The notes: a model not told the origin generated them from the sequence alone. 64,000 nt of DNA from Candidatus Omnitrophota bacterium (GCA_022711395.1 JAKLFA010000002.1:67864-131863); one strand, 5' to 3'; shown: positions 31,927-60,471, counted from the stretch's first letter. Numbers and translations are program-made.

Positions 31927-33225
31927 TTAAAGATTTTCCATGCGGATCGCTACGGGGCGACTCTTAATAACCGACAGTTTGTCGTGTATATAGGTGAGAG
32001 CCTGCCTTACTTTTCCTTCGGGAGCGCAGTCCGTGATGATGATCAACGGGACAACACCGGACGGGCTGTGGGCTTTCTGGGATACGGAATTGATGCTGAT
32101 ACCGTAACGGCCGAAGACCCCGGCGATCTTGGATAAGACCCCGGGTTTATCGACAGCGGTGAACCGCACATAAAATTTTGTTGAAATGTGATCAATGTTC
32201 ATGAACTTCAAGCCGGGGGCTTCGTGGTAGTAATTACCGATGAAGCTTAACGGATCGCAGTCTCCCCGTGTTGCAAGGTTGATGAGGTCGCTGACCACTC
32301 CTGAAGCGGCGGCCATCTGCCCGGCCCCCTCCCCGGAAAGAAGGACATCGCCCAGCGGATCGGCTTCCATGAGGACGGCGTTCAAAACGCCGTTGATGGA
32401 GGCCAGCGGATGGTGCTTGCTGATCAACGTCGGATGGACACGGGCTTCAATCTTGGATTCGTTTTGCTTCGCGATCCCTAAAAGTTTGATGCAAAGACCA
32501 AGCTCCTTGGCATATTGGATATCCTCATGGGAGATATGCGTGATGCCTTCGGTGTGAATGTCCTTGGTCTGGATGAATTTACCGAAAGCCAGGTAAGTCA
32601 GGATCGTCAGTTTATAGGCGGAATCCATGCCGTTAATATCAAGCGTCGGGTCTGTTTCGGCAAATCCTTTGGCCTGGGCGGCTTTGACCGCCTGTTCAAA
32701 GCTCATCCCCTCTTCGGCCATGAGCGAAAGGATATAATTGCAGGTACCGTTGATGATACCAAAAATGCCGTTGTATTGGTTTCCGGCGATGCCTTCGGTC
32801 AGGGTCTTGATGATCGGGACGCCTGCCAGAACAGATGTTTCAAAATAGATATTGCGCTTGTATTGCCGGGCCGCCTTAAAAAGCTCTTTCCCGCATTGAG
32901 CGATCAACGCCTTGTTAGCGGTCACGACGTGCTTTCCATTTTTGAGCGCTTCCAGAACGAATTCTCTTGCCGGATGGAGGCCTCCGATCAGCTCAACGAT
33001 CACATCGATCGAAGGATCGTTCAGAAGGGCTGAGGCGTCATCCGTCAGCAAGATCTTGCCCAGGTTTTTTGGCTTTTTTGTCCGGAAGCGCAGATCGCAG
33101 ATCCCCTTCCACTGGAAATCCACGCCGAATTTACCCTGAATATGCTGGCGTTTACTATCCAAAAACTCAACAACGCCGGCGCCGACATTGCCGTATCCGA
33201 TCAATCCTAAACGTAATGTTTTCAT
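31927..33225 (-). CDS. hom: Homoserine dehydrogenase
   Basis: [16 protein letters not shown](P)-binding motif and C-terminal ACT domain. 432 aa. Confidence 0.9.
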
Positions 33226-33596
33226 CGTTCATCACTCTCGTTGCGTTCAAAAAAGTGGATGGCCTGTTTTAAGACTGTTTCCGCATCAGGGGTAAGGTTC
33301 TGGAATTGGATGCGGGTCTCGTAGACAATACCGTGGATCCGTTCATGGGATTCCAGGACCCTTCCCTCAAAGGAGGACAGGCCGGAAAAGAACGGAGTTT
33401 TGATCTCAATCCCTAACAGGGCTCCCGGAGGAAAGGGTTTTTCGGTCACGATGCAGAGGCCGCCAAGGCTGATATTTTTGATCTGAGACGCAGGGAATTT
33501 TTCCGACGGTCTGGACAGGTCAAAATAATCAAAAATAAAGTTTTTACTGATCCGGACATATTTCCGGCGATCAGCAGGAGTGGGATTATTGTTCAT
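33222..33596 (-). CDS. PilZ-domain protein (stand-alone)
   Basis: RRKYVRISKNF (RxxxR) and NISLGGLCI (DxSxGG-like). Start moved to the internal MNNNPTP, because the track ORF's first 24 codons overlap tRNA-Pro. Confidence 0.5.
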   Translation of the reverse strand: MNNNPTPADRRKYVRISKNFIFDYFDLSRPSEKFPASQIKNISLGGLCIVTEKPFPPGALLGIEIKTPFFSGLSSFEGRVLESHERIHGIVYETRIQFQNLTPDAETVLKQAIHFFERNESDER

Positions 33597-33622
33597 GACG
33601 GCTCCCTTGCTTCGATTAAATG

Positions 33623-33696
33623 TCGGAGCGGACGGATTTGAACCGTCGACCCCTTGTACCCCATACAAGTGCGCTAGCCAGCTGCGCTACGCTCCG
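33623..33696 (-). tRNA. tRNA-Pro (anticodon GGG)
   Basis: Reverse complement CGGAGCGTAGCGCAGCTGGCTAGCGCACTTGTATGGGGTACAAGGGGTCGACGGTTCAAATCCGTCCGCTCCGA folds as a cloverleaf: 7-bp acceptor, D-arm GCGC/GCGC, anticodon loop AUGGGGU, T-arm GACGG/CCGTC. No encoded CCA. Confidence 0.8.
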
Positions 33697-34819: not shown

Positions 34820-34928
34820 AATCGAAGAATTTCCTTATGTATTTGTTTTTATTATAAGCAGGTGTTGTCTTTTTGCAAGCCGCATAAAAAAATAAACATG
34901 ATTTGATGGAGGAATAAATTTCTCTATA

Positions 34929-35546
34929 ATGAGCATGATGAAAGCAATACACCACGGCGTTATTTATCTTTTCGCATTTCTTACGGTTGGATGGATCTTA
35001 GGCTACAGCCCGATCGAGACGGGTAAAATTTTGGCAGTTTCGTGTTATGATCCCGGGGCGAATCATTTTAAATCTCATCCGCTCCCCCTCAATCAGTGGA
35101 TAAGGCCGGCCCTCTTCTTTTCGTTTATTTATGGTTTTGGAATTTTGATCTCATGCGGCATCGAGAACAGCAAACGGCCGTTTACATTCGAAGCTTTTCG
35201 AAAAAATATTTTTATTGGCCTGCTTTGTATCGGGACGCTTCTTGTGATGGTCCAGCTTAAAGGTCATGCGATGTTCTTGGCGAGGTATATTCAGGTGAGC
35301 GTGCGGCAAGGCATCATTCGTGAGCGTTTGGGACAGTCTTTGGATTTCGCTGTAACACTGGCCGATCATGTTCACCGGCGTTATTCGGGACAACCCGTGA
35401 CCGTTGGGGTGGATATGGGGCCTGATTGCGGAGAGGACCCCTGCTTTTATATTGAACGGGCCCTTAAATATTATTTATACCCTATTGATACGGGTGATAT
35501 CCGAGGAGAAGCGGCGGTCGAGACGCTCAAGCCCCTCAGCCGTTGA
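34929..35546 (+). CDS. Small membrane protein, module copy 1 (paralog of 36959-37657)
   Basis: 2-4 TM helices. Conserved C-terminal ...FYIERALKYYLYPIDTGDIRG, matching ...FYLLRSLSYHLYPIDIRNIRPG in the paralog. Confidence 0.4.
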   Translation: MSMMKAIHHGVIYLFAFLTVGWILGYSPIETGKILAVSCYDPGANHFKSHPLPLNQWIRPALFFSFIYGFGILISCGIENSKRPFTFEAFRKNIFIGLLCIGTLLVMVQLKGHAMFLARYIQVSVRQGIIRERLGQSLDFAVTLADHVHRRYSGQPVTVGVDMGPDCGEDPCFYIERALKYYLYPIDTGDIRGEAAVETLKPLSR

Positions 35547-35552
35547 GGATCG

Positions 35553-36962
35553 GTGAATGACGGTCAAAGAAAGGCCGATATGGAGCTGGTTTTGAAATTG
35601 ATGATCTTAGGATTCTGTGTTGGGTTTCCGTGTTTTTTGGGGTATACGGTGGTGCGGGCCATTTGCCCTCACATCCGTTCGGCATGGAGCGCCGGGCTCT
35701 CTTTTTGTGTCGGGTCCGGGTTGATTACGTTCTGGATTTTTGTGTTAGGAATGTTGAAGGCCCCATTGACAATCGCCGTGATCAATTGGCCGCTTTTGGC
35801 GCTGGCCGCCATGCTGTTTATTTTGCGAAGACCCGGACGTGTCGTAGCGTTAGAGCATAACAAGCGCGTCCGTTTTTGTAAGCTGAACATGCTGGATTTC
35901 AGGATTTGGATATCCGGTGCTGTTTTTTTGACTCTTCTTTTTGTGGTCATCGAAGCCGGGGCGCTGCAGACATATGTTTGGGATTCGCTTTCGTATATCG
36001 CGTTTAACGCAAAAGTGATATTTTTTGAACGCAGTTTTCAATATAACGCGAATCTTCCCCACCCTTCTTCTCCGATGGGCATTCCTTTACTGCAGTTTTG
36101 GTTCAACTTGAATCTGGGCTATTGGAGTGAATATTTTATTCAAGCGCCGTTTCCGATATATTTTATTTCCCTGCTTTGGGTGGTCTGGTCATTCTTGAAA
36201 GAGCATGTTTCAGACAGGGCGGCCTGGATCGGGATTTTTTTATTGATCGCCGCTAATTTGCCGGTTTATCATGCTGCGATTGGATACATGGATGTTGCGC
36301 TTTCCTTATGTTTATGTTCTTCGATCCTCCTGGTCTTTGAAGCAGTCGAAAAACGGGATGACCGGTTGTTCGGTGTTGCCGGGCTGTGCGCGGGGTTGGG
36401 AGTGTGGACAAAATTGGAAGGTGCGGCGTTTGTGTTGATCGTGGCCGTTCTTTATGCGGTTCTTGAATGTGGTCTTAAAAAAGAAAGGTTCAAACTGCGT
36501 TCGATGCTTAAGAGGTTGGTCTTTTTTGGGGCCATTCCTGTGCTGGTTTTTGCGGTTCAGTGGGTCTATAAGAAAGATTTGGGGTTGTTGCTTTTTGCCG
36601 GGAGGTTCGGGCTCCTCGGCTTTGGGGAGGCGATGTTCCGTCTTAAACTTTTTGTGTTGAAGGCCACTGAAAGTATGTTCTTGCCCCTTAACTGGAATGT
36701 TAATTGGTTGATGTGGGTTGCGGGCCTTATGCTGACGCCTTTTTATAAGAACAAACTTTCAGCCTACCTGTGTTTGGGAATATTTTTTTTCTGGGCTGCA
36801 TGGTCGGGATGCTTTGTCCTGACAAATAATTTTCAGTTCATGAATGCGGTGCTTTCGCGGGCGATCCTTCAGTTTTTTCCGCTGGTGGTCTTAATGAACG
36901 CGATATGCTTTGATCAGTTCGTTTTCCATGAACAAAAGAAAACAAAGGATAACGCGGGATGA
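35553..36962 (+). CDS. Large polytopic membrane protein, module copy 1 (paralog of 37659-39005); possible GT-C-like glycosyltransferase
   Basis: >10 TM helices. Conserved loop block WDSLSYIAFNAKVIFFERSFQYNANLPH (paralog SWDSIATIVMKSKVFFFERSFEFNRNLPH), loosely reminiscent of the D-x3-Y motif of ArnT/PMT GT-C enzymes. Confidence 0.4.
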   Translation: MNDGQRKADMELVLKLMILGFCVGFPCFLGYTVVRAICPHIRSAWSAGLSFCVGSGLITFWIFVLGMLKAPLTIAVINWPLLALAAMLFILRRPGRVVALEHNKRVRFCKLNMLDFRIWISGAVFLTLLFVVIEAGALQTYVWDSLSYIAFNAKVIFFERSFQYNANLPHPSSPMGIPLLQFWFNLNLGYWSEYFIQAPFPIYFISLLWVVWSFLKEHVSDRAAWIGIFLLIAANLPVYHAAIGYMDVALSLCLCSSILLVFEAVEKRDDRLFGVAGLCAGLGVWTKLEGAAFVLIVAVLYAVLECGLKKERFKLRSMLKRLVFFGAIPVLVFAVQWVYKKDLGLLLFAGRFGLLGFGEAMFRLKLFVLKATESMFLPLNWNVNWLMWVAGLMLTPFYKNKLSAYLCLGIFFFWAAWSGCFVLTNNFQFMNAVLSRAILQFFPLVVLMNAICFDQFVFHEQKKTKDNAG

Positions 36963-37657
36963 TGAAATTCTTGAAGTTGGCGTTTATTTATATTTTCTGT
37001 TTTTTTGCGGTCGCCTGGGTTTGTGGATACCCGTTCGGTGAGGCGCTGAAAACCATTCCGGAAACGATGGTGGCGGCCTCCCCCAATAAAGTGCGGCTGG
37101 CTCCCCTGCCCAACGGCGTGAACCCTTTTTTCATACTGATCGTTTCGTTTTTGTTGGGGTCTCTCATTGTGATTGTATCGGCCGCGCTGAATCAGGAGCG
37201 CCAGGAAGCGCTTCAACGGTGTCTGGTCGGGATGGTGGTCCTTCATTCATTGTTCGCGGGCTTTCAATATGCGGGATTAGTGTCTGATCTCGACAAAGAT
37301 TTTGATATGAGGGGCTGGCATCTGGTCAAAGTGGGGAATTATTTTTCCGGACCGCAAAACCCTAAGATCCTGGCTGAGCAGATCAAGATCATGGTTTTTC
37401 CCCGCACAAGGTTGAAGCTGGACTTTAGAAGTGACCTTTCCTTTGAGAGGGACCCAAATTTTTATTTATTGCGCAGCTTGTCTTACCATCTTTATCCGAT
37501 CGACATTCGCAATATCCGCCCGGGGGAATTTGATGGGGCCCTTTTGATGGGTGTGGCTGACCTTGCTTCAGCAGTGCCTTCTGAATATCAATATGTGTTT
37601 CCATTGGGAAGGAATGATGCGATCGCGCTTAAAGAAGGTTTGGACTCAAGGAGGTAA
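36959..37657 (+). CDS. Small membrane protein, module copy 2
   Basis: Paralog of 34929-35546; start overlaps the preceding gene by 4 nt. Confidence 0.4.
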   Translation: MMKFLKLAFIYIFCFFAVAWVCGYPFGEALKTIPETMVAASPNKVRLAPLPNGVNPFFILIVSFLLGSLIVIVSAALNQERQEALQRCLVGMVVLHSLFAGFQYAGLVSDLDKDFDMRGWHLVKVGNYFSGPQNPKILAEQIKIMVFPRTRLKLDFRSDLSFERDPNFYLLRSLSYHLYPIDIRNIRPGEFDGALLMGVADLASAVPSEYQYVFPLGRNDAIALKEGLDSRR

Positions 37658-37658
37658 A

Positions 37659-39005
37659 ATGCTTTTACTACTACTTTATAGTTTATTGTTCCCTGCCGTA
37701 TTGGGGAACGTTTGTCTTCTTGTCATCGCTCCGTCTCTCTCCTGCTTTGTCCGCTGGGGGCTCGCCTACGGGATCGGAATGGGCGTTATTTCGGTTTGGA
37801 TCTTTCTTTTGGGGGCGTTTAACATGGCCCTGTCGTGGGAGGCCATAAATATTCCTTTATGTGTCTTACTCTGTTTTGTTTTTTGGAGGGGCAGGGTTTT
37901 GGACCAGGACCGCAGAATCGATTCGGTCCGGTTCAGTCCCGATTTCGTTCAATGGGCGTTCCTTGCCGTGATTGTTATAAACGTGATGTTCACTTTTTTT
38001 GTGGCCACGGCGTATTCTGCCTACAGTTGGGACTCGATCGCGACCATCGTGATGAAATCGAAAGTGTTCTTTTTTGAGCGTTCATTTGAGTTTAACCGAA
38101 ACCTTCCTCATGCGTCATATCCGATCCACGTTTCATTGATGCATTTCTGGGTCGCGGCCAATTTTGCGCAGTGGAACGATACGGTCATCAATATCGTGCA
38201 GCCGTGTTTTTACGGGTCTTTGCTGCTGTTGATGTATGGTGTCCTGCGCAGTTTTGTTTCTAGCCGATATGCGTTAGTGGGCGTTTTTTTACTGGCCACA
38301 TCAGCGTTGTTTCAGTTTCATGCAACGATCGCTTATACGGATATCGTCTTGGCGTATTACACTTGTGCTGCCGTGTGGTTAGTTTTATTAGGCTGTCACT
38401 GCGGGTCCTCCGGTTCTTTTGCTGCAGCGGGATTGTGCGCGGCGCTGGCCTGTTTCACGAAATTGGAAGGCGTAATCTATTCGCTGATTGTGGCAGGACT
38501 GTGTGTTCTGGGGAATGTTCTTTATCGCGAGAAGAGCTCATGGCAGAAAAAGATTCTGGCGGTTGTGAAGGTGGGCCTTCCGCCTGTTCTGATGTTCAGT
38601 GCATATCTTATTTTTAAGATCGTTTATGGGGTGAGTTTGGGGGAAGCCGGAAAAACTTCGATCGAGTTTTCCGCGGATTTTTTTCACCGCCTGGCCCACA
38701 CGGTCAACTCGATCAGGATAGACGTTTTTTTATCCGGAAACTGGGGATGGAACTGGCTGATCTGCATCGCCGGATGCGCTTTGGGATTCCGTTCTTTCCG
38801 GAAACCCTGCACGCGTTATAGCGCATGCGCGGTTCTGGCATTCCTGTGTTTTGACATGGTATTATTTCTTTTTACGCCGAATTTCCGCTGGATCGTCTCT
38901 TCCACCACACTGCTGTCACGGCTGATCTTACAATCGTTTCCGCTGGTTCCTTTTTTATCTGCGATCGTTCTTGAAGAGGTTTTTTCAAAAAGATCCGCTA
39001 AATGA
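37659..39005 (+). CDS. Large polytopic membrane protein, module copy 2
   Basis: Paralog of 35553-36962. Start placed at ATG 37659, preceded by aggagg RBS. The track ORF's upstream extension to 37551 overlaps the previous gene. Confidence 0.45.
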   Translation: MLLLLLYSLLFPAVLGNVCLLVIAPSLSCFVRWGLAYGIGMGVISVWIFLLGAFNMALSWEAINIPLCVLLCFVFWRGRVLDQDRRIDSVRFSPDFVQWAFLAVIVINVMFTFFVATAYSAYSWDSIATIVMKSKVFFFERSFEFNRNLPHASYPIHVSLMHFWVAANFAQWNDTVINIVQPCFYGSLLLLMYGVLRSFVSSRYALVGVFLLATSALFQFHATIAYTDIVLAYYTCAAVWLVLLGCHCGSSGSFAAAGLCAALACFTKLEGVIYSLIVAGLCVLGNVLYREKSSWQKKILAVVKVGLPPVLMFSAYLIFKIVYGVSLGEAGKTSIEFSADFFHRLAHTVNSIRIDVFLSGNWGWNWLICIAGCALGFRSFRKPCTRYSACAVLAFLCFDMVLFLFTPNFRWIVSSTTLLSRLILQSFPLVPFLSAIVLEEVFSKRSAK

Positions 39006-40428
39006 ACTTGATCTTGCGGCAGGCGAACCAGCACATTTTAAAAAGCAGCAGCCCGTGGTAGAAACGGCGGATCTGGGTAGAACCGTAGGTGCGTTCTTTA
39101 TAGCGGATCGGGAGCTCCGTGATCTTTAAGTTGAGCTTTGATGCTCCGAAAATAAGGTCAAAGTCCCCGAAAGGGTCAAAATCCCCGAAATAGTCACGGT
39201 TGCGGGCGATCTCCTCATATTGTGTCCGAAAAAGCACTTTGGTGCCACAGAGGGTGTCCTTGAGCTTTTGCCCGACCAGCCATGAAAACAGGATCCCGAA
39301 AAATTTATTGGCGACAAGGTTCAGAAACCGCATGGCTTCTTTTTCCATGGGGTAGACCAGCCGGCACCCGTTGATGAACTCGCCTTTGTTTTCTTTGATC
39401 GCGTCATAGAATCTTGGAAGGTCTTCAGGCGCCACGGTCAAGTCCGCATCCAGGATCATAAGGATGTCCCCTGTTGCTTTGGAAAATCCCAGGCGCACGG
39501 CGTCCCCTTTTCCATGGCCGTTCTGTTTAAAATACCGGATGTTGCGCTGCGGATAAGCAGCGGCCACGCGTTCGATTTCTTCATACGTTCCGTCTTTTGA
39601 CCCGCCTTCAATAAAGATGAATTCCTGACGGGAACCGAAAACGGGCGTCCGCTGGATCGCGGCTTCGATGTTTCCTTTTTCGTTGCGTGCCGGAACGATC
39701 ATGCTTACGGAATGTTCCTGTGCTGGGTCAAACAGCGGGCGCGCAATGATAAAGTGATTCAAGGTCAGGGCATTCAAAAACGGAAGATTGGCGATGACGC
39801 GGTTGAAAAGAAAACTCAAGACAGGAAAATGCACAGGGAACAGGACTTTTCGTTCCATCCGGACCGGTTCAATCTGGCAGAGATGAAGGAAATTTTTGAT
39901 GTCCGTGTGCGTCAGCCAGTTCAAGAGCGGCTGTGGCATTTTGAGCCCGAGTCGCTCCCCTGTTTTTAAAATGACCTGCCAAAGGTAGCTGTAATATTCG
40001 ATAATGATCCGGGTCTGGGGCGTTGAAACTTTGGAGATGTCTTTTAGGAGCGCAATGATGTCAGCTTCTTCATGAAGAGTCCCGGAAAGTATCACGTAAT
40101 CAAAAGGTCCTGCGATATTGGAGCCGTTCAATGTGCCATGATGGAATTCCAGGTTGGGATATCGTTTGGCGGCGGTCAGGATCATCTGCCCGCTAAGATC
40201 AATGCCAACTCCTTTGCAAGGCTGGAGCGCGTTTAAGAGATAACCCGTTCCACAGCCGATCTCCAGGATCCGTTTTCCGGCCGGGATCATATAGCTATAA
40301 TACTGGACAAGCAGGTCGTAATAATATTGATTTTTTTCAATGAACGCGTCGCGTTTTTCGGCGAGCTTATCATAATGCTGAGCGATCCTGTCGGATATGT
40401 TTCTGCCGTTTCTTGTGTCATGTGTCAT
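38998..40428 (-). CDS. Fusion: class-I SAM-dependent methyltransferase (N) + family-2 glycosyltransferase, polyprenyl-phosphate-sugar synthase type (C)
   Basis: SAM motif I ILEIGCGTGYLLNAL at the N-terminus. C-terminal GT2-A fold MIVPARNEKGNIEAAI...ILMILDADLTV (DxD). Confidence 0.7.
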   Translation of the reverse strand: MTHDTRNGRNISDRIAQHYDKLAEKRDAFIEKNQYYYDLLVQYYSYMIPAGKRILEIGCGTGYLLNALQPCKGVGIDLSGQMILTAAKRYPNLEFHHGTLNGSNIAGPFDYVILSGTLHEEADIIALLKDISKVSTPQTRIIIEYYSYLWQVILKTGERLGLKMPQPLLNWLTHTDIKNFLHLCQIEPVRMERKVLFPVHFPVLSFLFNRVIANLPFLNALTLNHFIIARPLFDPAQEHSVSMIVPARNEKGNIEAAIQRTPVFGSRQEFIFIEGGSKDGTYEEIERVAAAYPQRNIRYFKQNGHGKGDAVRLGFSKATGDILMILDADLTVAPEDLPRFYDAIKENKGEFINGCRLVYPMEKEAMRFLNLVANKFFGILFSWLVGQKLKDTLCGTKVLFRTQYEEIARNRDYFGDFDPFGDFDLIFGASKLNLKITELPIRYKERTYGSTQIRRFYHGLLLFKMCWFACRKIKFI

Positions 40429-40445
40429 GTGTCATGTGTCCTTAT

Positions 40446-41177
40446 TTATTTCCAAACAAACACTTCGCGAAAGACTTCCCACATATAGGCGGCTCCCCAA
40501 CGCATGACCTGCAGTTTGCGCTCGCCCCCTTCTCGCGCCGGTTCATCTCCAGGGATCTCAGCGACTTTAAGCCCGCGCTTGGCGGCGCGGATGGATAACA
40601 GCGGCTCCCAGCTGATATTCGTTTTAAAAAGCCGCTCTTCAAATTCATAGGATTCATCCTTATCAAGATCAAGCTCTTGAATGAGGGATTTGCGGTATGC
40701 GCGGAAAATGACCATCGCGTCCGTATAGTGGGCGCCGTGCAGGAGGTTGATCATTGTGGTAAAAAGGGTGTTGCCGAATGACGTGACGGTGTCATCATCA
40801 TAGCTTTTGGCCCCTTCTTTGTAGCGGGACACGATGACCATGTCATAACCTTCTTTGAGTTTGTCAAGGCAGGCAGGGATGAGTTCCGGGATCGAATTTC
40901 CATCCGGGCTGAAGGTCAGGACCACGTCCCCGCGCACATGGGGCAAGGCCTCCATATAGGCATGGCGCATCCCTTTTTTTTGCTGAATGACGACTTCATA
41001 GCCTTGCTGTCTGGCGTATTCGACCGTTCCATCCGTGGACTGGCCATCCACGATCAAGAGCTGGTCATACCATTCAGGCCGGATCTTCGGCATGATCGCC
41101 TTCATGCCGTCAATTTCATTCAATGTTGGCACAAGCAGTGTCGTAGTCATGAAGCCTCTTTTGTGTTGAAAATTCAC
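40446..41177 (-). CDS. Family-2 glycosyltransferase (DPM1/GtrB-like polyprenyl-phosphate sugar synthase)
   Basis: TLLVPTLNEIDGMKAIMP...LLIVDGQSTDGT... ; 243 aa. Confidence 0.7.
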   Translation of the reverse strand: MNFQHKRGFMTTTLLVPTLNEIDGMKAIMPKIRPEWYDQLLIVDGQSTDGTVEYARQQGYEVVIQQKKGMRHAYMEALPHVRGDVVLTFSPDGNSIPELIPACLDKLKEGYDMVIVSRYKEGAKSYDDDTVTSFGNTLFTTMINLLHGAHYTDAMVIFRAYRKSLIQELDLDKDESYEFEERLFKTNISWEPLLSIRAAKRGLKVAEIPGDEPAREGGERKLQVMRWGAAYMWEVFREVFVWK

Positions 41178-53003: not shown

Positions 53004-54716
53004 TCACGGAGCGGCCGGCGCCAGGCGTTTTAAAAATTCCAGGATCTCATTGTATTCATCACTCTTGAAATGTGGTTCAAGGGCCCTCGCCTGCTCAAGG
53101 GTCGCGCCCAGGTCGTGAGTTTTTTCATAATATTGCACCAACAGCCGGAAATATTGATCCGCTATGTAGGCTGAGAAGAATTCATCCAGAAGCTTTTTGT
53201 AAAAATAAAAGGACTGCTCATATTGGGCCAGTTGAAAATAGACGTGTCCGAGAATATGAATATAAAGAGGGTCATAAGGGTTCAGCTCGTGCGCGGCCCT
53301 GATGAAGGGTAAAGCTTTTTCGAAATCGTTATTCATCGAGTGCATGATCGAAAGATTGGCATAAGCGGCGATATTTTTTGGATCCAGCTCGATTGCCTTT
53401 AAAAGATAAGTTTCAGCTTTTGAAAAGTCGTTTTTTCGAAGGTAAACAGTGCCCATCCCCATGATGCCGCGGGATTTGAGCGGTGATTTTAAGGCCACAT
53501 CCTGCCAGAAGGCGCTTTCTGTTTGCCAGACCAGATTGCGCTTAATGGTCAGGAATGAAAGTCCTGCAATGATAAGGATCATGAGGATCATCCGCGCCCT
53601 GGGCCGGACTTTTTCAACGATCACGAACGCGGTGATCCATGACAAACCGATTAAAGGCAGATAAAGGCGGTGCTCCTGAATGACATCTTTGATCGGGAAA
53701 ATGGAGGATTCCACGCTTAGGGTGATCAAAAACCATGCCCAGCCCATGAGCAGGACCGGATGCCTTTTTCTCCAGCGGATGAAACAAAATGTGATGAACA
53801 GTAAAATACCGGCGCCTGTCAGAAAAGGAGCGCTGAAGAGAGATTCTGTGAGCGGGTAATCATAGTCAGCGCACTGATAGACCGGGAATAAAAACAGCGA
53901 CAGGTAAGAATTCAGGACGCTGGCTTGAGTAAAAAAATATGTCGAACGGGTTATGTCAGCGGTTTCCCGGACGATGCTGGCCAACGGCCTCCCCCACCCT
54001 ATGGAATAATTCAGGAGCAGGGGGATGATCGCGATGCAGAGAAAGAATGGAGCAAGGGATTTGACCAGAGCCTTTTTTGATGCCGGGTGAGAGCCCTGGA
54101 TGAGAGCGATCTCAAGAAAACAGATGATGAACGGCAGCGTGGCGCTGTTCTCGCGGGATGCCATGGCCATCGCACAAAGGATGATGGACAGGACCCGGGA
54201 GATCATGCGGTTTTCCAGACGGGATTGCAGGTAAAGGACGATCGAGCCAAGATAGAACGCGGTTGAAAGCAGCGTGATCCGCTGGACGATCCAGCTGACC
54301 GCCTGGGTCTGGACCGGATGGGCCAGAAAGATCAACCCGGACAGCAGGCTGAAAAGGAAACAGTTCTGCCCGCTGATTTGGGAGAATTTTTTTGTCTTTA
54401 AGATCATCCGGGATAAGAGGAAAACGAAACAGGCGTTCAGGATATGGATAAGAACGTTGGTCAGGTGATATCCGAACGTGCGTTCCTGATGGAAGAAATA
54501 ATTTAAAGCGAAGCTGAAATACGGGAAAAAACGGGACGCGTGATAGCCGGAGATCTTCCTGAGGTTCTGGGCATTGTGAACAATAGGGTTGCCTTTGATG
54601 TTGAGGATGTCATCATAGAGGAACTCCCCGTTTAAGCTGTTGGAGTAGATCAAAAACCCCAAGGCGATGAACAGCAGGCATGCCAATAACGTTTGCTTGA
54701 GCTGGGTGTTTGCCAT
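53004..54716 (-). CDS. TMTC-like polytopic membrane protein with C-terminal TPR repeats (putative GT-C-fold O-glycosyltransferase)
   Basis: Motif NGEFLYDDILNI (F-x-YDD) immediately after TM1, as in TMTC/PMT-like GT-C proteins. At least 10 TM helices, then TPR repeats in the last ~170 aa. Confidence 0.5.
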   Translation of the reverse strand: MANTQLKQTLLACLLFIALGFLIYSNSLNGEFLYDDILNIKGNPIVHNAQNLRKISGYHASRFFPYFSFALNYFFHQERTFGYHLTNVLIHILNACFVFLLSRMILKTKKFSQISGQNCFLFSLLSGLIFLAHPVQTQAVSWIVQRITLLSTAFYLGSIVLYLQSRLENRMISRVLSIILCAMAMASRENSATLPFIICFLEIALIQGSHPASKKALVKSLAPFFLCIAIIPLLLNYSIGWGRPLASIVRETADITRSTYFFTQASVLNSYLSLFLFPVYQCADYDYPLTESLFSAPFLTGAGILLFITFCFIRWRKRHPVLLMGWAWFLITLSVESSIFPIKDVIQEHRLYLPLIGLSWITAFVIVEKVRPRARMILMILIIAGLSFLTIKRNLVWQTESAFWQDVALKSPLKSRGIMGMGTVYLRKNDFSKAETYLLKAIELDPKNIAAYANLSIMHSMNNDFEKALPFIRAAHELNPYDPLYIHILGHVYFQLAQYEQSFYFYKKLLDEFFSAYIADQYFRLLVQYYEKTHDLGATLEQARALEPHFKSDEYNEILEFLKRLAPAAP

Positions 54717-54876: not shown

Positions 54877-56646
54877 TTAATCGATGCCGTTGAAGGACAG
54901 GGCGACGTCAATGAGCGCCAGGTGGCTGTAGGCCTGCGGAAAATTCCCCAGAAGGCGTTTGGATGAGATGTCCATGTCTTCGCTGAAAAGCCCTAAATGA
55001 TTAGCGTGTTTGAGCATGTTATCGAACAATGTCTTGGCCAGGCCCTTCTCTCCGATCCGGTAAAGGCTTTTGATCATCCAGAACGTGCAGATGATGAACG
55101 ATGACTGCGGTATGCCGAAATCATCATTATTGCGGTAACGGTACATCATGCCGTTCTCACAGAGGTGTTCATAGGTCTGTTTGACCGTTGAGACATAACG
55201 GGGATCGGCCGCTTCGATAAAGCCATAATGTTCCATCAGGAGATTCGCGGCGTCATAGTTGGTGCCATCGTAAGCCTGGGTGAAGCACTGCATCCGTTCG
55301 TTCCAGCCATGTTTGAGGATATCGGCCTTGATGGTCTTTGCGATCGATGCCCAGCGCGTGACATAGGTTTCCATATTAAACAGGCGGGCGATGCGGGCGG
55401 CGCGGTCAAGGGCTACCCAGCTGAGGACTTTGGAAAAGGTGTAATGCTTCATGTCGCTTCGGAATTCCCAGATGCTGTGGTCCGGGTCTTTCCAATGCTG
55501 TTCGACGTGGCGGGCCAGCGTGCGGACGACCGTCCAGACATCTTCCTTGTTGTGCATGGTGCTGTGATACAGGATCAGGTATTCATAGATCATGTCGATC
55601 AGGCTTCCGTAAATATCGTTTTGTTTCTGCAGGTAGGCGTTGTTGCCGACGCGGACCGGCTTGGACCCCTCATATCCCTCGAGCCAATTGAGCTCATGCT
55701 CATCTAAAAGTTTGTCTCCGTTGATCCCGTACATGATCTGTATATGTTCATCTTTATACGAAATGATGTTGAGGATGAATTGCAGAAAACGGTTGGCAAC
55801 ATTGGAGTGGCGCAGGCGGTTAAGGATGCGGATCGTCATGGACGCGTCCCGGATCCAGCAGAACCTGTAGTCCCAGTTGCGGACATCGCCAATGCTTTCC
55901 GGGAGGCTGGTCGTGGCGGCGGCCAGGATCGCGCCGGTTTTTTGATAGGCCAGCAGTTTCAGCACCAGGGCGCTGCGCTCGATCTCCTCATTATAGAGCT
56001 CAAAAGGCGGCATTTTTTCCATCCATGACATCCAGTAGACCTTTGTGCGCTCGACCTGAAGTTCGATCTGATCGGTGGTCACCGGAGCGACCTTTTGGTT
56101 GTAATTCAAAAGAAGATAGGACATGGACCGCAGCTCGAACGGGGCCTGATCGTAAATGGCCTTTAACGGGATATTTGAATAAAGATAGATCGACTCATAG
56201 GAGCCTTCTTTTGAAAAACTTTTGATATAGGAATCATGGAGCGCTGTTTCTGTCGGGAATTCTCCGTAATTCATTTGCGGGTTGAACAGGACCCGGATGC
56301 GGGCGGTTCCTTTGCGGGGGCGCAGGATGCGGATGATCTCGGGCGGAGTATTATAGACCCCTTTAAAATCAATGTAGCGGGGCATGAAATCCACCAGTTC
56401 AAACGACCAGTCCTCGCTGCGGAAGACGGTCGAAAGGACATTGGTTTTGCGGATATATTTTTGTTCAGTGGTATAGTCCCCCTCGGGAATGATCTCAAAC
56501 GACCCTCCCCTTTTTGCGTCGAGGATCTTGGCGAAAACGGACCCGGAGTCAAATGCCGGAAGGCACAGCCAGTCGATCGAGCCCTGTTTGCTGATCAGGG
56601 CGGCGCTTTGACCGTTGCCGATGATGCCGTAATCCAGATTGTTCAT
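54877..56646 (-). CDS. Glycoside hydrolase family 15 enzyme (glucoamylase-like; probable trehalase)
   Basis: N-terminus DYGIIGNGQSAALISKQGSIDWLCLPAFDS typical of bacterial/archaeal GH15. Adjacent to and overlapping otsAB. Confidence 0.6.
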   Translation of the reverse strand: MNNLDYGIIGNGQSAALISKQGSIDWLCLPAFDSGSVFAKILDAKRGGSFEIIPEGDYTTEQKYIRKTNVLSTVFRSEDWSFELVDFMPRYIDFKGVYNTPPEIIRILRPRKGTARIRVLFNPQMNYGEFPTETALHDSYIKSFSKEGSYESIYLYSNIPLKAIYDQAPFELRSMSYLLLNYNQKVAPVTTDQIELQVERTKVYWMSWMEKMPPFELYNEEIERSALVLKLLAYQKTGAILAAATTSLPESIGDVRNWDYRFCWIRDASMTIRILNRLRHSNVANRFLQFILNIISYKDEHIQIMYGINGDKLLDEHELNWLEGYEGSKPVRVGNNAYLQKQNDIYGSLIDMIYEYLILYHSTMHNKEDVWTVVRTLARHVEQHWKDPDHSIWEFRSDMKHYTFSKVLSWVALDRAARIARLFNMETYVTRWASIAKTIKADILKHGWNERMQCFTQAYDGTNYDAANLLMEHYGFIEAADPRYVSTVKQTYEHLCENGMMYRYRNNDDFGIPQSSFIICTFWMIKSLYRIGEKGLAKTLFDNMLKHANHLGLFSEDMDISSKRLLGNFPQAYSHLALIDVALSFNGID

Positions 56647-58976
56647 TCTTTCCCCCCGTGCTGTTTTTTTTGATGTTGATCTGAAGCGGAGCAGACCGAT
56701 CGCAGGAAGGCCCTGAATTCCTGAGGCGAAGACAGCCGCAGGCCGGCCGCGGTCTCTCCTTTGCCGACCTTGATCGAGATCAGGCGCGGGTCGTTGAGCG
56801 TGAACATGTTCTCATCGGTGCGGTCATCTCCCGCGCAGACCGCGAGGTCGCAATCATCGGCCGCAAGAAAATGGGCGAGCGCCGCCCCTTTATGGACCTG
56901 CGCGTGGCTGACCTCAACGATGCATTTGCCATGGTGGACGCAGGCGGGTTTGTTGGCCAGCAGGTCAGTTAGATTGGCGATCAGATGCTGGGCCTTCCAC
57001 GCTCCGAATTCCGGGTCCGACAAACGGTAGTGCCAGACCAGGGACGCTTCTTTGGTCTCAATGAAGCTGCCGGGCGTGGTGGTGACGTATTGCTGGAAGA
57101 TCTCCAGGGCCTTTTCCCGGAACGACAAGTCGAGATTTTTATGGATCAGCTGCCATTGCCGCTGGTGAGGACGGCGGAAGCTCAGCCCATGCTCGGCGAT
57201 CAGGGTGACATTGAGGTTTCCCAGCCAGATATCGAGGTCAACGTTTTTGCGCCCGCTGATCACATAGACACGGGAATTTTTTAATGACGAGATCCCATCA
57301 AGCAGTTCGCGGATCTCCCGGCCCGGTGATGATTTATGCGGGGCGGATTCGAACTCGCGCAGGGTCCCATCATAGTCGATGAAGAACGTGGCCGCCCGGC
57401 TTTTTTTGATCCGGCCGATGGCTGTTTCGCGGGTCAGGGCTTGCCCGCTCTCTCCGCCCTCCTGGCGGTCGGGCGGTGATGAGGATAGGGCCTGCAGGAA
57501 CGCGCGGGTCCAGTGCCTGGCGTCATGCTTGATCACATGGGAGCGCATCTCCTTGATGTCTTGCCGGCGCTCAGCTTCCGGCATGGACAGGGCGTTCTTT
57601 AAACTTTCCACGATGCTGTCGATATGGTAGGGATTGACAATGACGGCATTGAACAGTTCGTTAGCCGCCCCGGCGAATTCACTTAAGATCAGGACCCCTG
57701 CTTCCTGCGTTTGGCAGGCGATGAATTCTTTAGCCACGAGGTTCATGCCGTCAATGAGGGGTGTGACCATGGCCACGTCAGCTGCCGAATAGAGCGCGCA
57801 GAGCTCGGTGAAGGAAATGCTCGAATGAATGAAATTGATGGGGACCGAATGGATAGAACCGTATTTGCCGTTGATGCGCCCGACCGTTTTTTCGATCAGG
57901 TCCTTGAGCTGATCATATTCTTTGACTTCTTCCCGGCTGGGGATGTTGATAAAGACAAAAACAGTGTCATTACGGCCTCCTGTTTCCGAAAGAAATTTTT
58001 CTATGGCTTCCAGCCGTCGGAGGATGCCTTTGGTATAGTCAAGGCGCTCGATGCTGAGCACGATCTTTTGTCCGGCGTATTTCTTTTTCAGCCGGGCGAG
58101 GCACGCCTGACAGCGTTTGGTCTTCAGCTCTCTCAGGAAACGTCCGGAATTGATTCCGACCGGAAAGACGCCAAGCCGGCAGAACCGCTCACCGGTCCGG
58201 ATGCGGTCGATGTCAGTGTCGAGGCTGAGCAGGCGGGTTACGGAGCTGCGGAAATGCCTCAGATAGCCGTAGGTGTGAAATCCGATCAGGTCAGAGCCCA
58301 GCAGGCCTTTGAGAAGCTCTTCCCGATGCGGCAGACAGCGGAAGATCTCATAGGATGGAAAAGGCGTGTGCAGAAAAAAACCGGTCTTAAGCTGAGGTTT
58401 GATGTCGCGCAGCATCTGCGGCACAAGAAACAAATGATAATCATGGATCCATACGAGATCGTCATGTCCGGAATTCTTCGCGATCATTTCCGCGAAACGG
58501 CGGTTGACCGATCGGTAGTTCTCCCACCACCGTGAATCATAATGAATGTATTGTGGAAAATAATGCAGCGCCGGCCACAGGCAGGCGTTGGCAAAGCCGT
58601 GATAATAATCCGATACTTCTTCGGAAGACAGAAAGACCGCGGAACACTGAAATTGTTTTTCGAGGAGTTTCGTAAGATCGGCGCGCTCATTCTGCCCTGA
58701 CGCGGCGTTTCCCGGCCAGCCGATCCAGTGCGGGCTGAAGTGTTTCACGCCTTCCAGCGCGGATACAAGGCCGCCGGATGATCGTTGGATGGATTTTTCG
58801 ATGGTGACCGGAAGCCGGTTTGCGGCAATGATGATCTTTTTATTGTGTGCCAGGGTGCCCCGTCCTTTGTTAAATAATCGACGTTCATTGAGCTTACGAA
58901 AGCGCTGTCTGAAGCCCCGGCGGGGGCGAGCGGATCCAGCGATGCTGTTATCGTTGCGGCCGCCGGGACGGATCAT
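56643..58976 (-). CDS. otsAB: Bifunctional trehalose-6-phosphate synthase (GT20) / trehalose-6-phosphate phosphatase (HAD) fusion
   Basis: GT20 N-terminus [15 protein letters not shown]...[11 protein letters not shown]-terminal HAD motif [10 protein letters not shown]. The ~40-aa Arg-rich N-terminal extension may not be translated. Confidence 0.8.
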
Positions 58977-59053: not shown

Positions 59054-60349
59054 TCAGCGAAGCTGGCGGGCGTCCTTGGCCAAAGATTCAAGGTCGATAA
59101 AATGATCAGCGATATATCCGGCGAGGAATTCGTTGAAGGGCGGGCTGTAGTGCACATTGTCCACGATCGCTTTCCGCTGCGGACCCCAGACGTTGAACAG
59201 ATGCGTGATATCAAGATAGCCGGCGGGTTTGAAGTCTTTGTGGAAACGGTTGCGGAAGTCCCTTCTTCTTAAAAAGATCTCGGGAAGGTCCCTGCGATAG
59301 AGGTCCTTGGAATAGTTATACATCGCGTCCGGCTGCAGGAAGAACAGGCTTTTGACCCCGAATTCGTCGCAGACCCGCCGGGACATCCGCTGGTTCATTT
59401 CAAAGCGCTTCGCGCTGACCTCGACATAATCCTGTTTTGAATCCTCCTCCTCCCCCCGGCTGGAGCGCGGCGCGCTGGCCGGATGGCCTTTCAGGATCTT
59501 TTTTTTGATGCCATTGGCGAGCCTGATCATCGGGACCCAGTTTAAGCGCTTCATGACCGGGATCGTGTCATAGGAGTCGAACTGCAGGCTGAAAAATTTT
59601 TCGATCAGTTGGACAGTAAAGTAGGGTTCATCCGCGCCGGTCCCCCAGTTGACGCCGTCCATGAAGATCACCAGGTCCGGCCTGTGCCCGGAGCGGATCA
59701 GGGCGGTCAAAAGCGCCAGTTCCTGGCTGGGGGTGTAATGCCCGTGCCCGTAATTGGTCACCTCAATGGAAACGGCAAGGCCGGCCTGCTTTGCCCGTTC
59801 GTTTAGGGTCCTGGAAAGAAAGCTCGGCCAGGTGTGCTCATCGGAGACGTTGTAGCCGAAGGTCGTGCTGCCGCCCAGGCAAAAGACGCGGATGACCGCA
59901 AGATCATCTTGGGCCGGCGGGTTTATGGTCCGGCGGACGGGAAAACCCTTCGGGTCGGCATCGATGTGCAGAAGCTCGCCGTCAAAGAACGGCTCTGCGA
60001 ACTGGACCCAGGGCTGATAGATGAAGCCCCGTTCCGCCAGTTCGAAAAAATCATCCAGCACTGCTGAGGCGTATCGCTGGTCCGCGGCGTTCTCATAGGC
60101 GGTGTAGTCGAACCAGTCCAGCTGATATTCGCTTCGCCGCCCGTTATCCAGAGGCTTTCCGGCCGGGTCGAAGAACTTCTGGGCCTGGAGCATGTGCTTT
60201 GAAAGGACGGAGCGCCTGAACTGCTGCAGCGCCTCTCTCGCCCAAAATCCGGCGCCGATCAGCAGATTGAGCAGGATGAGAATCGCGAATGTGTTGAACG
60301 TGAAGACCGCCGCGGCCGAGTAGGCCTTTTTGAGCTTTGAGATAGTCAT
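59054..60349 (-). CDS. Membrane-anchored hypothetical protein, possible SGNH/GDSL-like hydrolase fold
   Basis: N-terminal TM. Block VFCLGGSTTFGYNVSDEHTWPS resembles SGNH block I. Weak. Confidence 0.3.
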   Translation of the reverse strand: MTISKLKKAYSAAAVFTFNTFAILILLNLLIGAGFWAREALQQFRRSVLSKHMLQAQKFFDPAGKPLDNGRRSEYQLDWFDYTAYENAADQRYASAVLDDFFELAERGFIYQPWVQFAEPFFDGELLHIDADPKGFPVRRTINPPAQDDLAVIRVFCLGGSTTFGYNVSDEHTWPSFLSRTLNERAKQAGLAVSIEVTNYGHGHYTPSQELALLTALIRSGHRPDLVIFMDGVNWGTGADEPYFTVQLIEKFFSLQFDSYDTIPVMKRLNWVPMIRLANGIKKKILKGHPASAPRSSRGEEEDSKQDYVEVSAKRFEMNQRMSRRVCDEFGVKSLFFLQPDAMYNYSKDLYRRDLPEIFLRRRDFRNRFHKDFKPAGYLDITHLFNVWGPQRKAIVDNVHYSPPFNEFLAGYIADHFIDLESLAKDARQLR

Positions 60350-60471
60350 TGGACCCGGGAGTTTGGTGCCGTTGTTTAAAATCCGCTAAAGCATATTCAT
60401 TTTACACAACAAGGGCGCCTTTTCTATGAATAATTTTGGAAACGTGACGGCCTTTTTTTGGGGCGCGCGCG

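What the first reader, a model, noticed from the sequence alone, without database searches (positions are those of the whole stretch)
34929..39005. Tandem duplication of a two-gene membrane-protein module of unknown function
A small (205/232 aa) and a large (469/448 aa) polytopic membrane protein occur twice in tandem, giving order small1-large1-small2-large2. Each pair shows clear but diverged paralogy (conserved ...YLYPID... tail in the small proteins; WDS...FFERSF..NLPH block in the large ones). The module sits directly upstream of two polyprenyl-phosphate-sugar-synthase-like GT2 genes and a tRNA cluster. The large proteins may be GT-C-like glycosyltransferases consuming the GT2 products.
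Basis: seen in the sequence. Interest (0 to 1): 0.6.

Follow-up and report, generated by a model that had tools for sequence, protein, structure and literature searches.

The report
Duplicated two-subunit membrane glycosyltransferase module
Two tandem copies of a gene pair in an Omnitrophota genome each encode a lipid-linked-sugar (GT-C) glycosyltransferase and a small, unannotated membrane protein that always sits beside it and probably works as its partner on the outer face of the cell membrane.

Summary
Four co-directional, tightly coupled genes (small1, large1, small2, large2; 34929-39005) form two diverged copies of one pair (small 26% identity, E 4e-13; large 34%, E 3e-58). Both large proteins pass Pfam PMT_2. 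An AlphaFold model matches only GT-C enzymes among its top 28 solved-structure hits. An invariant Trp-Asp follows a membrane helix on the predicted periplasmic side. The two adjacent GT2 genes, which are convergent rather than co-transcribed, resemble Dol-P-Man synthase and ArnC. NCBI already names the large2 protein cluster 'glycosyltransferase family 39', so that part is not new.

What is new concerns the small protein. It belongs to a family absent from Pfam and NCBIfam: three membrane helices plus a roughly 100-residue C-terminal domain with the motif DPGM..HR.LAY.LYPID.R. It abuts a large-family gene in all 15 genome loci examined. In a reverse scan seeded with the large protein, 16 of 21 loci where neighbours were visible also had it, in order S-L or L-S. 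Pair number varies from one to three, and small and large trees mirror each other (r = 0.85). The large proteins lack the periplasmic domain typical of ArnT-like enzymes. My best reading is a two-subunit GT-C enzyme duplicated as a unit. Acceptor, sugar and physical interaction are untested.

The parts
34903..34930 (+). Promoter-like site (TTGATG-16-TATAAT, 10 of 12) in the 109-bp gap upstream of small1. Its -10 box overlaps the first ATG, so the true start may be the MMK codons at 34935.
   Evidence: Consensus scan; sequence. This is a pattern match only.
34929..35546 (+). small1 (S1), 205 aa. It has 3 TM helices and a predicted periplasmic C-terminal domain with D170-P171...R177..Y181.L183-Y184-P185.D187. 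This clade has lost the last ~35 residues that the rest of the family keeps.
   Evidence: (AlphaFold pLDDT 91). No Pfam or NCBIfam match.
35553..36962 (+). large1 (L1), 469 aa, GT-C fold glycosyltransferase of the PMT_2 type. It has three extra N-terminal TM helices, a W143-D144 catalytic-loop motif, T286-K287-L-E-G, and R436. It ends right after its last TM helix.
36959..37657 (+). small2 (S2), 232 aa, paralogue of small1 with the full-length C-terminal domain. Its start overlaps the large1 stop (ATGA).
37659..39005 (+). large2 (L2), 448 aa, paralogue of large1. All family-invariant residues are kept. A near-identical protein cluster is named 'glycosyltransferase family 39 protein [Candidatus Omnitrophota bacterium]' by NCBI.
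   Evidence: (P0007).
38998..40428 (-). Fusion of a class I SAM methyltransferase with a GT2 domain, 476 aa. It resembles polyprenyl-phosphate sugar synthases, is convergent with large2, and overlaps it by 8 bp.
   Evidence: Pfam; NCBIfam; PDB best hits 5mlz and ArnC. Orthologues lie next to the S-L pair in L003, L009, L011, L013 and L016, with a fragment at the edge of L015.
40446..41177 (-). GT2, 243 aa, with no TM helix. It resembles AglJ / dolichyl-phosphate hexose transferase and is the probable second lipid-linked donor synthase.
   Evidence: Orthologues near the pair in L003, L008 and L016.

Best explanation
The unit is a gene pair, S then L. L is a GT-C glycosyltransferase of the PMT_2 type (GT39/GT83-like). 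It takes a sugar from a polyprenyl-phosphate carrier at the periplasmic face of the inner membrane, using the invariant Asp of the W-D motif in the first periplasmic loop of its core. S is a dedicated partner subunit. Three membrane helices anchor a small alpha/beta domain and a conserved loop on the periplasmic side. There S most likely completes or extends the acceptor/donor-binding surface that ArnT-like enzymes carry in cis as a C-terminal periplasmic domain, which every L protein lacks. The two convergent GT2 enzymes make the lipid-linked sugar donors on the cytoplasmic side. One of them is fused to a SAM methyltransferase, so a sugar or donor may be methylated. In the ancestor of this Omnitrophota clade the whole S-L pair was duplicated in tandem, and the two pairs have since diverged into two isoenzymes that probably differ in acceptor, linkage or donor. 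Shown here: the paralogy, the GT-C family and fold, strict adjacency, co-duplication and co-divergence. Inferred: physical S-L association, the role of S, periplasmic orientation, use of the GT2 products, and functional divergence. Unknown: the sugar and the acceptor.
For: (1) L is GT-C. It passes Pfam PMT_2 above cut-off, its fold matches are exclusively GT-C, and the invariant residues W143, D144, K154, Y245, K287 and R436 hold across 19 members.
(2) S is a real family without annotation. There are 53 cluster representatives at E<1e-3 among 1.84 billion proteins, all 110-299 aa. None of 34 members has a meaningful Pfam match, and NCBIfam finds nothing. The AlphaFold model is confident (pLDDT 91) but has no PDB or BFVD fold match.
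(3) Adjacency is obligate. In 12 S-seeded GTDB loci plus the window, L001 and L003, every S gene is followed on the same strand by an L-family gene. The gap is -4 to +13 nt in 14 of the 21 pairs. The larger negative values come from taking the most upstream start codon, and three pairs have gaps of 37-147 nt.
(4) The reverse test agrees. Of 28 L-seeded metagenome loci, 9 have S immediately upstream and 7 have S immediately downstream, so gene order is permuted but adjacency is kept. Seven are cut at the contig edge. Five have no S at E<1e-3, but four of those carry an abutting 144-161-aa gene with the same motif pattern. Shuffle tests on two of them gave 1 and 4 of 1000, and hhalign gave E 0.0095.
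(5) The pair is the unit of duplication. There are one, two or three pairs per locus. S1/S2 and L1/L2 are sister clades in their respective trees, and an independent duplication in L010/L015 shows the same partner-wise pairing. The mirror-tree correlation is r=0.85, with 0 of 2000 partner permutations reaching it.
(6) S function lies outside the membrane. Lys/Arg density over 34 members is 0.17 (N-tail), 0.07 (loop 1) and 0.22 (loop 2). This places loop 1 and the C-terminal domain in the periplasm. All conserved residues (Y40, P42, N45, Q109, D170, P171, R177, Y181, L183, Y184, P185, D187, R192) lie there, while the TM helices are barely conserved.
(7) Every L ends right after its last TM helix with a Lys-rich tail, so none has a C-terminal periplasmic domain.
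(8) There is a candidate fusion. P0009 (788 aa) has an L-like core followed by 3 hydrophobic segments and a C-terminal stretch in register with the S domain. Support is marginal: shuffle 3/1000, HMMER E 0.006 for one target, hhalign E 0.12.
(9) Both GT2 neighbours are closest to Dol-P-Man synthase and ArnC. Methyltransferases recur in the neighbourhood.
(10) A precedent for partner-specific accessory subunits of GT-C enzymes exists in PIG-M/PIG-X (PMC9306709).
Against: Nothing here shows physical contact. No complex prediction could be run, and there are far too few paired sequences for residue co-variation. The mirror-tree correlation is inflated by shared species phylogeny. Topology rests only on the positive-inside rule and hydropathy. 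The idea that S replaces a cis periplasmic domain is weakly founded. S shows no detectable similarity to E. coli ArnT. The in-register alignment to the tail of the GT39 protein P0011 is not significant (shuffle 69/1000). The putative partners of P0010 and P0008 are not significant either. One L-family locus with 650 nt of upstream sequence (L043) shows no S-like gene. GT2 genes are absent within 6 kb in 5 of 15 loci (L001, L010, L014, L018, L019; L001 and L010 are cut just past the last pair), so the donor link is not universal. The large1 model is only moderately confident, and its catalytic loop (141-173) is modelled below pLDDT 50.
Confidence: 0.6

Rival explanations
1. S is the missing flippase of a classical three-component periplasmic glycosylation system (GT2 synthase + flippase + GT-C). 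It would move the polyprenyl-phosphate sugar across the membrane to L.
For: Three-component systems need such a protein, and its gene usually sits in the cluster (PMC11127046). No GtrA, SMR, MATE or Wzx-type gene is recognisable between 33.8 and 41.2 kb of the window. S is small and has several TM helices. The window holds two pairs and two GT2 genes.
Against: The TM helices of S are poorly conserved, and nearly all invariant residues lie in extramembrane segments. Probable distant homologues have a single TM helix, which cannot form a lipid conduit on its own pattern. S has no similarity to any flippase family in Pfam or NCBIfam. Pair number does not track GT2 number: loci with one pair also have two GT2 or methyltransferase genes. 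Partner-wise co-divergence with L is not expected for a carrier-lipid flippase.
Confidence: 0.12
2. S is an anchor or activator of the cytoplasmic GT2 synthases. Precedents are GacJ for GacI, Rv3632 for PpgS, and DPM2/3 for DPM1. This would explain why the 243-aa GT2 has no TM helix.
For: GacJ is also a small protein with three TM helices that binds and stimulates a polyprenyl-P sugar synthase (10.1101/180810). The 243-aa GT2 lacks any hydrophobic segment.
Against: S has no DUF2304 match. It is always adjacent to L, not to a GT2, and in five loci no GT2 lies within 6 kb. Its conserved residues are predicted to be periplasmic and so out of reach of a cytoplasmic enzyme. The cytoplasmic loop 2 is short and variable.
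Confidence: 0.05
3. S is functionally linked to L but is not a catalytic partner. It could be an assembly or stability factor, a regulator, or even the acceptor that L glycosylates.
For: Adjacency and co-evolution show only a functional link. For PIG-X, the known accessory subunit of a GT-C enzyme, the role is still unclear and includes stabilisation (PMC9306709).
Against: About a dozen invariant polar and aromatic residues cluster in one small domain and one loop. That pattern is more typical of a ligand-binding or catalytic surface than of a pure scaffold. S has no Ser/Thr-rich or repetitive region of the kind usually glycosylated.
Confidence: 0.15

Closest known systems
ArnT / PMT_2-type GT-C glycosyltransferases (Pfam PF13231; CAZy GT83 and GT39)
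   Same: The PMT_2 profile match is above cut-off. The protein is polytopic, its fold matches ArnT 5f15/5ezm, Pmt4 and STT3, and it has an invariant acidic residue in the first periplasmic loop of the core plus a conserved T-K-x-E-G segment that aligns with ArnT 'MTKG'.
   Different: L has three additional N-terminal TM helices with a conserved YGxGxG helix. It has no C-terminal periplasmic domain. A separately encoded small partner gene is always adjacent. Sequence similarity to solved members is too low for HMMER to detect. No NCBIfam equivalog applies; the best hits are far below cut-off.
Three-component periplasmic glycosylation systems (GtrB/GtrA/Gtr*, ArnC/ArnEF/ArnT, C. youngae ORF15/ORF14/ORF12; PMC11127046)
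   Same: Genes for polyprenyl-phosphate sugar synthase-like GT2 enzymes and a GT-C transferase are clustered, implying a lipid-linked monosaccharide donor used outside the cytoplasm.
   Different: No recognisable flippase gene is present. S is an extra component unrelated to any flippase family. One GT2 is fused to a methyltransferase. The GT2 genes are convergent to the GT-C genes rather than co-transcribed. The GT-C and its partner are duplicated.
GPI mannosyltransferase I: PIG-M/Gpi14 with PIG-X/Pbn1 (PMC9306709)
   Same: A GT-C catalytic subunit needs a small membrane-anchored accessory subunit whose bulk lies on the non-cytoplasmic side. Pairing is partner-specific, which parallels the co-divergence of S with L.
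   Different: The system is eukaryotic and shares no sequence relationship. PIG-X has one C-terminal TM helix and a large lumenal domain. The resemblance is an analogy of organisation only, and the interaction here is untested.
GacI-GacJ (and PpgS-Rv3632): small membrane activator of a polyprenyl-P sugar synthase (10.1101/180810)
   Same: A small three-TM protein is encoded next to its glycosylation enzyme, is sometimes fused to it, and forms a complex that boosts activity.
   Different: GacJ (113 aa, DUF2304) partners the cytoplasmic GT2, not the GT-C. S has no DUF2304 similarity, is twice as long, and carries a conserved extramembrane domain.

Membership tests
GT-C superfamily, PMT_2-type (PF13231) | Sequence match to the family profile above the curated threshold | tested here: met
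   large1 scores 36.7 bits and large2 30.1 bits against a gathering score of 26.1. Orthologues carry precomputed PF13231.
GT-C superfamily, PMT_2-type (PF13231) | Polytopic membrane protein (7-13 TM helices) with the GT-C fold | tested here: met
GT-C superfamily, PMT_2-type (PF13231) | Conserved acidic residue in the first extracytoplasmic loop of the core | tested here: met
   W143-D144 is invariant in 19 family members and D144 in distant GT39 relatives. The preceding loop 91-119 has 8 Lys/Arg, so the motif is predicted to be periplasmic. Topology is predicted, not measured.
GT-C superfamily, PMT_2-type (PF13231) | Uses a polyprenyl-phosphate-linked sugar donor | not testable with these tools
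   Only gene neighbourhood bears on this. DPMS/ArnC-like GT2 genes are adjacent in the window and in 10 of 15 loci.
CAZy GT39 protein O-mannosyltransferase (the name NCBI gives the large2 cluster) | Transfers mannose from polyprenyl-P-mannose to Ser/Thr of proteins; PMT (PF02366) profile match | tested here: not met
   large1 and large2 have no PF02366 match at E<=1. Only a distant relative (L044) reaches it, at 24.9 bits. Activity is not testable. The GT39 label is a family-level name, not evidence of O-mannosylation.
Three-component periplasmic glycosylation system (GtrA/B/C type) | Polyprenyl-phosphate sugar synthase (GT2) encoded with the GT-C | tested here: met
   Two GT2 genes lie at 38998-41177. 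Their best solved relatives are 5mlz and ArnC, and the NCBIfam AglJ and dolichyl-P hexose transferase models are their best hits, though below equivalog cut-offs.
Three-component periplasmic glycosylation system (GtrA/B/C type) | Dedicated flippase (GtrA, SMR, MATE or Wzx family) in the cluster | tested here: not met
   No such family is hit by any protein of the cluster, and no other small polytopic ORF lies between 33.8 and 41.8 kb. A flippase encoded elsewhere in the genome cannot be excluded.
GacJ / DUF2304 activators of GT2 synthases | DUF2304 profile match and adjacency or fusion to the GT2 synthase | tested here: not met
   S1 and S2 have no DUF2304 hit at E<=1, nor do 34 family members at E<=0.01. 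S abuts the GT-C, not a GT2.
Tandem module duplication (S-L pair as the duplicated unit) | Both genes of copy 1 are each other's closest paralogues to the corresponding genes of copy 2, and the split has the same age in both trees | tested here: met
   S1 and S2 clades are sisters and L1 and L2 clades are sisters. Each has orthologues in L001 and L003, so the duplication predates those species. An independent duplication is seen in L010/L015.

The most novel reading that the evidence does not exclude
S-L defines an unrecognised two-subunit class of bacterial GT-C glycosyltransferases. In it the periplasmic substrate-recognition module is a separate, co-evolving polypeptide from a protein family with no database entry. 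Duplicating the pair is how these bacteria diversify envelope or protein glycosylation. The class would extend beyond Omnitrophota through single-TM partner variants and occasional L-S fusions.
Probability: 0.45. Interest if true: 0.55.

Novelty: new variant of a known kind. Interest (0 to 1): 0.4.

Why it matters
GT-C enzymes build or decorate lipopolysaccharide, cell-wall glycans and glycoproteins. In bacteria they are generally treated as single-polypeptide enzymes that carry their own periplasmic domain. A subfamily that has handed this part to an obligate small partner would matter in three ways. It would give an unannotated protein family a testable role. It would correct the annotation of the partner genes, which are now 'hypothetical'. 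It would also offer a simple system, two cognate pairs side by side, for asking how acceptor specificity is encoded in GT-C enzymes. Omnitrophota are uncultivated, often very small and possibly host-associated cells whose surface chemistry is unknown. A conserved cluster for a possibly methylated, lipid-linked sugar modification is a first handle on it. The tandem duplication itself is ordinary.

Tried and rejected
(1) Sequence search of large1, and of profiles of the large and small families, against all PDB chains found nothing meaningful.

(3) I tried to support 'S is the in-trans version of the C-terminal domain of longer GT39/ArnT enzymes' by profile comparison.
- E. coli ArnT gave nothing.
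- P0011 gave an in-register but non-significant alignment (E 0.09; shuffle 69/1000).
- I rejected this as evidence and kept it only as a lead.

(4) The small genes abutting the distant relatives P0010 and P0008 (L020, L022) look similar by eye but fail the statistics. I do not count them.

(5) S versus L profile comparison, testing whether S is a fragment of L, showed no similarity.

(6) The word-index homologue search returned only 3-8 relatives. The exhaustive HMMER search was needed to see the S family.

(7) Two related-loci runs with broad alignments failed for lack of a conserved 7-10-residue stretch. Narrower alignments worked.

(8) Mobile-element or phage origin is rejected. The module sits in conserved synteny with gpsA, a PilZ gene, hom and thrC in related genomes, and there is no compositional break.

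(9) The terminator scan shows fewer hairpin-T sites than shuffled sequence, and none between the four genes is convincing.

Full report
**The observation**

The window carries four co-directional ORFs at the stated coordinates:
- small1, 34929-35546, 205 aa.
- large1, 35553-36962, 469 aa.
- small2, 36959-37657, 232 aa.
- large2, 37659-39005, 448 aa.

For large2 the mechanical ORF list gives a 484-aa frame from GTG 37551. The ATG at 37659 is the real start. It lies 6 nt after AGGAGG and 2 nt after the small2 stop, and it matches where the orthologues start.

The junctions are tight. The small1 stop is followed by GAGGA and then GTG. The large1 stop overlaps the small2 start as ATGA. Between small2 and large2 there is a single base.

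A promoter-like site lies in the 109-bp gap upstream of small1. No convincing terminator separates the genes. The four genes therefore look like one translationally coupled operon.

The paralogy is significant. small1 and small2 share 26% identity, E 4e-13. large1 and large2 share 34% identity over 453 residues, E 3e-58.

One correction is needed. The two GT2 genes are on the opposite strand and converge on the module. large2 and the first GT2 overlap by 8 bp at their 3' ends. The tRNA cluster is not part of the neighbourhood that recurs with the pair across the related loci.

**What the large proteins are**

Both large proteins exceed the Pfam gathering score for PMT_2, at 36.7 and 30.1 bits against 26.1. 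The near-identical cluster of large2 (P0007) is already named 'glycosyltransferase family 39 protein [Candidatus Omnitrophota bacterium]' by NCBI.

An AlphaFold model of large1 built on a shallow alignment has pTM 0.76 and mean pLDDT 69. Its 28 best Foldseek matches among solved structures are all GT-C enzymes: STT3/OST, ArnT, AftA, AglB, Pmt4, ALG12 and ALG9. The probabilities are 0.96-1.00, but the E-values (4e-3 and above) and TM-scores (0.28-0.51) are modest.

Across 19 family members the invariant residues are G56, W143, D144, K154, P174, W183, W191, Y245, K287, W381, F413, R436 and P443. D144 is also kept in distant GT39 relatives.

The loop before the helix that precedes W143-D144 holds eight Lys/Arg. 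By the positive-inside rule the W-D motif faces the periplasm, as the catalytic acidic residue of GT-C enzymes does.

Two features set the family apart from ArnT-like enzymes. It has three extra N-terminal helices, one carrying a conserved YGxGxG motif. Every member also ends right after its last helix with a Lys-rich tail, so there is no C-terminal periplasmic domain.

**The neighbours**

The 476-aa protein is a class I SAM methyltransferase fused to a GT2 domain. The 243-aa protein is a GT2 without membrane helices.

Among solved structures both are closest to Pyrococcus Dol-P-Man synthase (5mlz) and to ArnC. Among NCBIfam models both are closest to AglJ and dolichyl-phosphate hexose transferase, far below equivalog cut-offs.

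In related loci the pair is accompanied by several recurring genes:
- GT2 genes in 10 of 15 loci.
- The same methyltransferase-GT2 fusion in five loci besides the window, with a fragment in a sixth.
- Stand-alone class I or FkbM methyltransferases.
- In two loci, a DUF6798 membrane protein.

This is the signature of extracytoplasmic glycosylation with a lipid-linked monosaccharide donor (PMC11127046). Methylation is possibly involved. No recognisable flippase gene is present in the cluster.

**The small proteins**

This is the less ordinary part. Neither small protein matches Pfam or NCBIfam.

An exhaustive HMMER search of 1.84 billion representatives with a four-sequence profile found 53 proteins at E<1e-3. 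All are 110-299 aa. None of 34 aligned members has a meaningful Pfam hit.

The family shares three N-terminal hydrophobic helices, a conserved Y-x-P-H-x-N loop, an invariant Gln at the end of helix 3, and a C-terminal domain of about 100 residues. That domain carries the motif LPG...L.TD.D.s.DPGM..HR.LAY.LYPID.R.IR.

The AlphaFold model of small1 is confident, with pLDDT 91. It shows helix 3 continuing as a 65-residue helix into a small alpha/beta domain. It has no match in the PDB or BFVD.

Lys/Arg density over the 34 members is 0.17 for the N-tail, 0.07 for loop 1 and 0.22 for loop 2. This places loop 1 and the C-terminal domain outside the cytoplasm. All well-conserved residues lie there, while the helices themselves are poorly conserved.

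The small1 clade has lost the last ~35 residues that small2 and the rest of the family keep.

**Linkage of small and large**

In 12 species-representative genomes found with the S motif, S is followed on the same strand by an L-family gene. All are Candidatus Omnitrophota or MAGs labelled Planctomycetales or simply 'bacterium'. The same holds in the window, L001 and L003. The gap is -4 to +13 nt in 14 of the 21 pairs. The larger negative values are artefacts of taking the most upstream start codon, and three pairs have gaps of 37-147 nt.

The reverse test used an L profile against metagenome contigs and returned 28 loci:
- 9 have S immediately upstream of L.
- 7 have S immediately downstream. 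Gene order is permuted but adjacency is kept.
- 7 are cut at the contig edge and cannot be judged.
- 5 show no S at E<1e-3.

Four of those last five carry an abutting upstream gene of 144-161 aa. It has one helix plus a domain of about 100 residues showing the pattern F..FC.D.LP.GSTFRLVG.DY...RAFYFLYP...FILVY. Support for homology is marginal:
- E 1.8e-4 for the best candidate after one profile iteration in a database of 665 ORFs.
- hhalign E 0.0095.
- Shuffle tests on two of them gave 1 and 4 of 1000.

One relative, P0009 (788 aa), looks like an L-S fusion. It has an L-like core, then three hydrophobic segments with a positively charged loop between the second and third, then a tail in register with the S domain. 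This evidence is also marginal: shuffle 3/1000, HMMER E 0.006 for a single target, hhalign E 0.12.

**The duplication**

Loci carry one pair (most), two pairs (window, L001, L003, L015) or three pairs (L010).

In neighbour-joining trees S1 and S2 are sister clades, and L1 and L2 are sister clades. Each has orthologues in L001 and L003. The pair was therefore duplicated as a unit before those species diverged.

L010 and L015 share a separate duplication with the same partner-wise pattern. Distances between S proteins and between their L partners correlate at r=0.85, and 0 of 2000 random re-pairings reach that value. Shared species history inflates this figure, so it shows consistency rather than proof.

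Both window copies keep all family-invariant residues. Both pairs are probably functional and diverged in specificity.

**Mechanism**

The best-supported reading is that L is the catalytic GT-C subunit and S is a dedicated, co-evolving partner. The periplasmic loop and domain of S would complete the substrate-binding surface, a job that single-chain relatives give to a C-terminal periplasmic domain. Donors would be made by the neighbouring GT2 enzymes.

Shown here:
- The family and fold of L.
- The existence and anatomy of the S family.
- Adjacency in both search directions.
- Co-duplication of the pair.

Inferred:
- Physical association of S and L.
- Periplasmic orientation.
- The role of S.
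- Use of the GT2 products by L.

Unknown:
- The sugar.
- The acceptor.
- The flippase.

Three rivals remain.
- S as the flippase. This is disfavoured by the unconserved helices, the probable single-helix homologues and the partner-wise divergence.
- S as a GacJ-like activator of the GT2 (10.1101/180810). This is disfavoured by the lack of DUF2304 similarity, the adjacency to L rather than to a GT2, and the periplasmic conservation.
- S as a stabiliser, regulator or acceptor. This cannot be excluded.

The closest organisational precedent is the PIG-M/PIG-X heterodimer of GPI mannosyltransferase I, where pairing is also partner-specific (PMC9306709). There is no sequence relationship to it.

**Verdict**

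The GT-C assignment is already implicit in public annotation, and a tandem duplication is ordinary.

The added value is the recognition of an unannotated small-protein family bound by gene order and co-evolution to a short, domain-less GT-C subfamily. It is found mainly in Omnitrophota. I rate this a new variant of a known kind, of moderate interest (0.4).

Noticed in passing
L001:13457-14146: Directly after the second S-L pair in GCA_038222225.1 lies a 229-aa ORF. It is a near-copy of the N-terminal half of that genome's large2 and ends prematurely shortly before the contig end. It could be a recent partial duplication, a pseudogene or an assembly artefact. The gene caller's table made it look like a third 'small' gene, which it is not.
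   Followed up: partly
L021:1317-3683 (protein P0009, 788 aa): This is a candidate natural fusion of an L-like GT-C core with an S-like module (three hydrophobic segments plus a C-terminal domain in register with the S motif). It comes from a high-GC metagenome contig, next to GT2 and GT4 genes. Statistics are marginal (shuffle 3/1000).
   Followed up: partly
L038-L040, L048-L051: A more distant clade has the reverse gene order (L then S, overlapping). Its neighbours also differ: a DUF2079 membrane protein (L039, L049) and a UbiA-family prenyltransferase-like gene (L040). A different lipid-linked donor pathway may therefore feed the same kind of two-gene unit.
   Followed up: partly
window 38998-39005: large2 (+) and the methyltransferase-GT2 gene (-) converge and overlap by 8 bp at their stop regions, leaving no room for a terminator. 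The same overlap occurs in L003 (4712-4719).
   Followed up: partly
window 34925-34940: The best -10-like hexamer (TATAAT) overlaps the first ATG of small1, and orthologues begin at the MMK residues. The real start may be 34935, possibly with a very short leader.
   Followed up: no
window 53004-54716 (-): A 570-aa protein has about 6 or more N-terminal TM helices, an early 'FLYDD' motif and C-terminal TPR repeats. Only TPR families are hit in Pfam. The architecture recalls TMTC/PMT-like TPR-containing GT-C proteins, so this may be a second, unrelated GT-C candidate in the window.
   Followed up: no
window 33222-33696 (-): tRNA-Pro(GGG) at 33622-33696 overlaps the 5' end of the longest ORF of the PilZ-domain gene. 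The real PilZ start is probably the ATG giving about 124-125 aa, as called in related loci.
   Followed up: partly
window 1048-3375 and 7912-10908 (+): An MMPL/RND-type transporter (775 aa) lies a few genes from a 998-aa fusion of an AMP-binding enzyme, a carrier-protein domain and an acyltransferase. This looks like a lipid-modification and export cluster.
   Followed up: no
window 54877-58976 (-): A fused trehalose-6-phosphate synthase/phosphatase (GT20 plus Trehalose_PPase, 777 aa) sits next to a GH15 trehalase-like protein.
   Followed up: no
window 60001-64000: G+C falls from about 0.55 to 0.42-0.47 over a 1135-aa HEAT/PBS-lyase-repeat protein (60472-63879, -), and the GC skew changes sign.
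   Followed up: no
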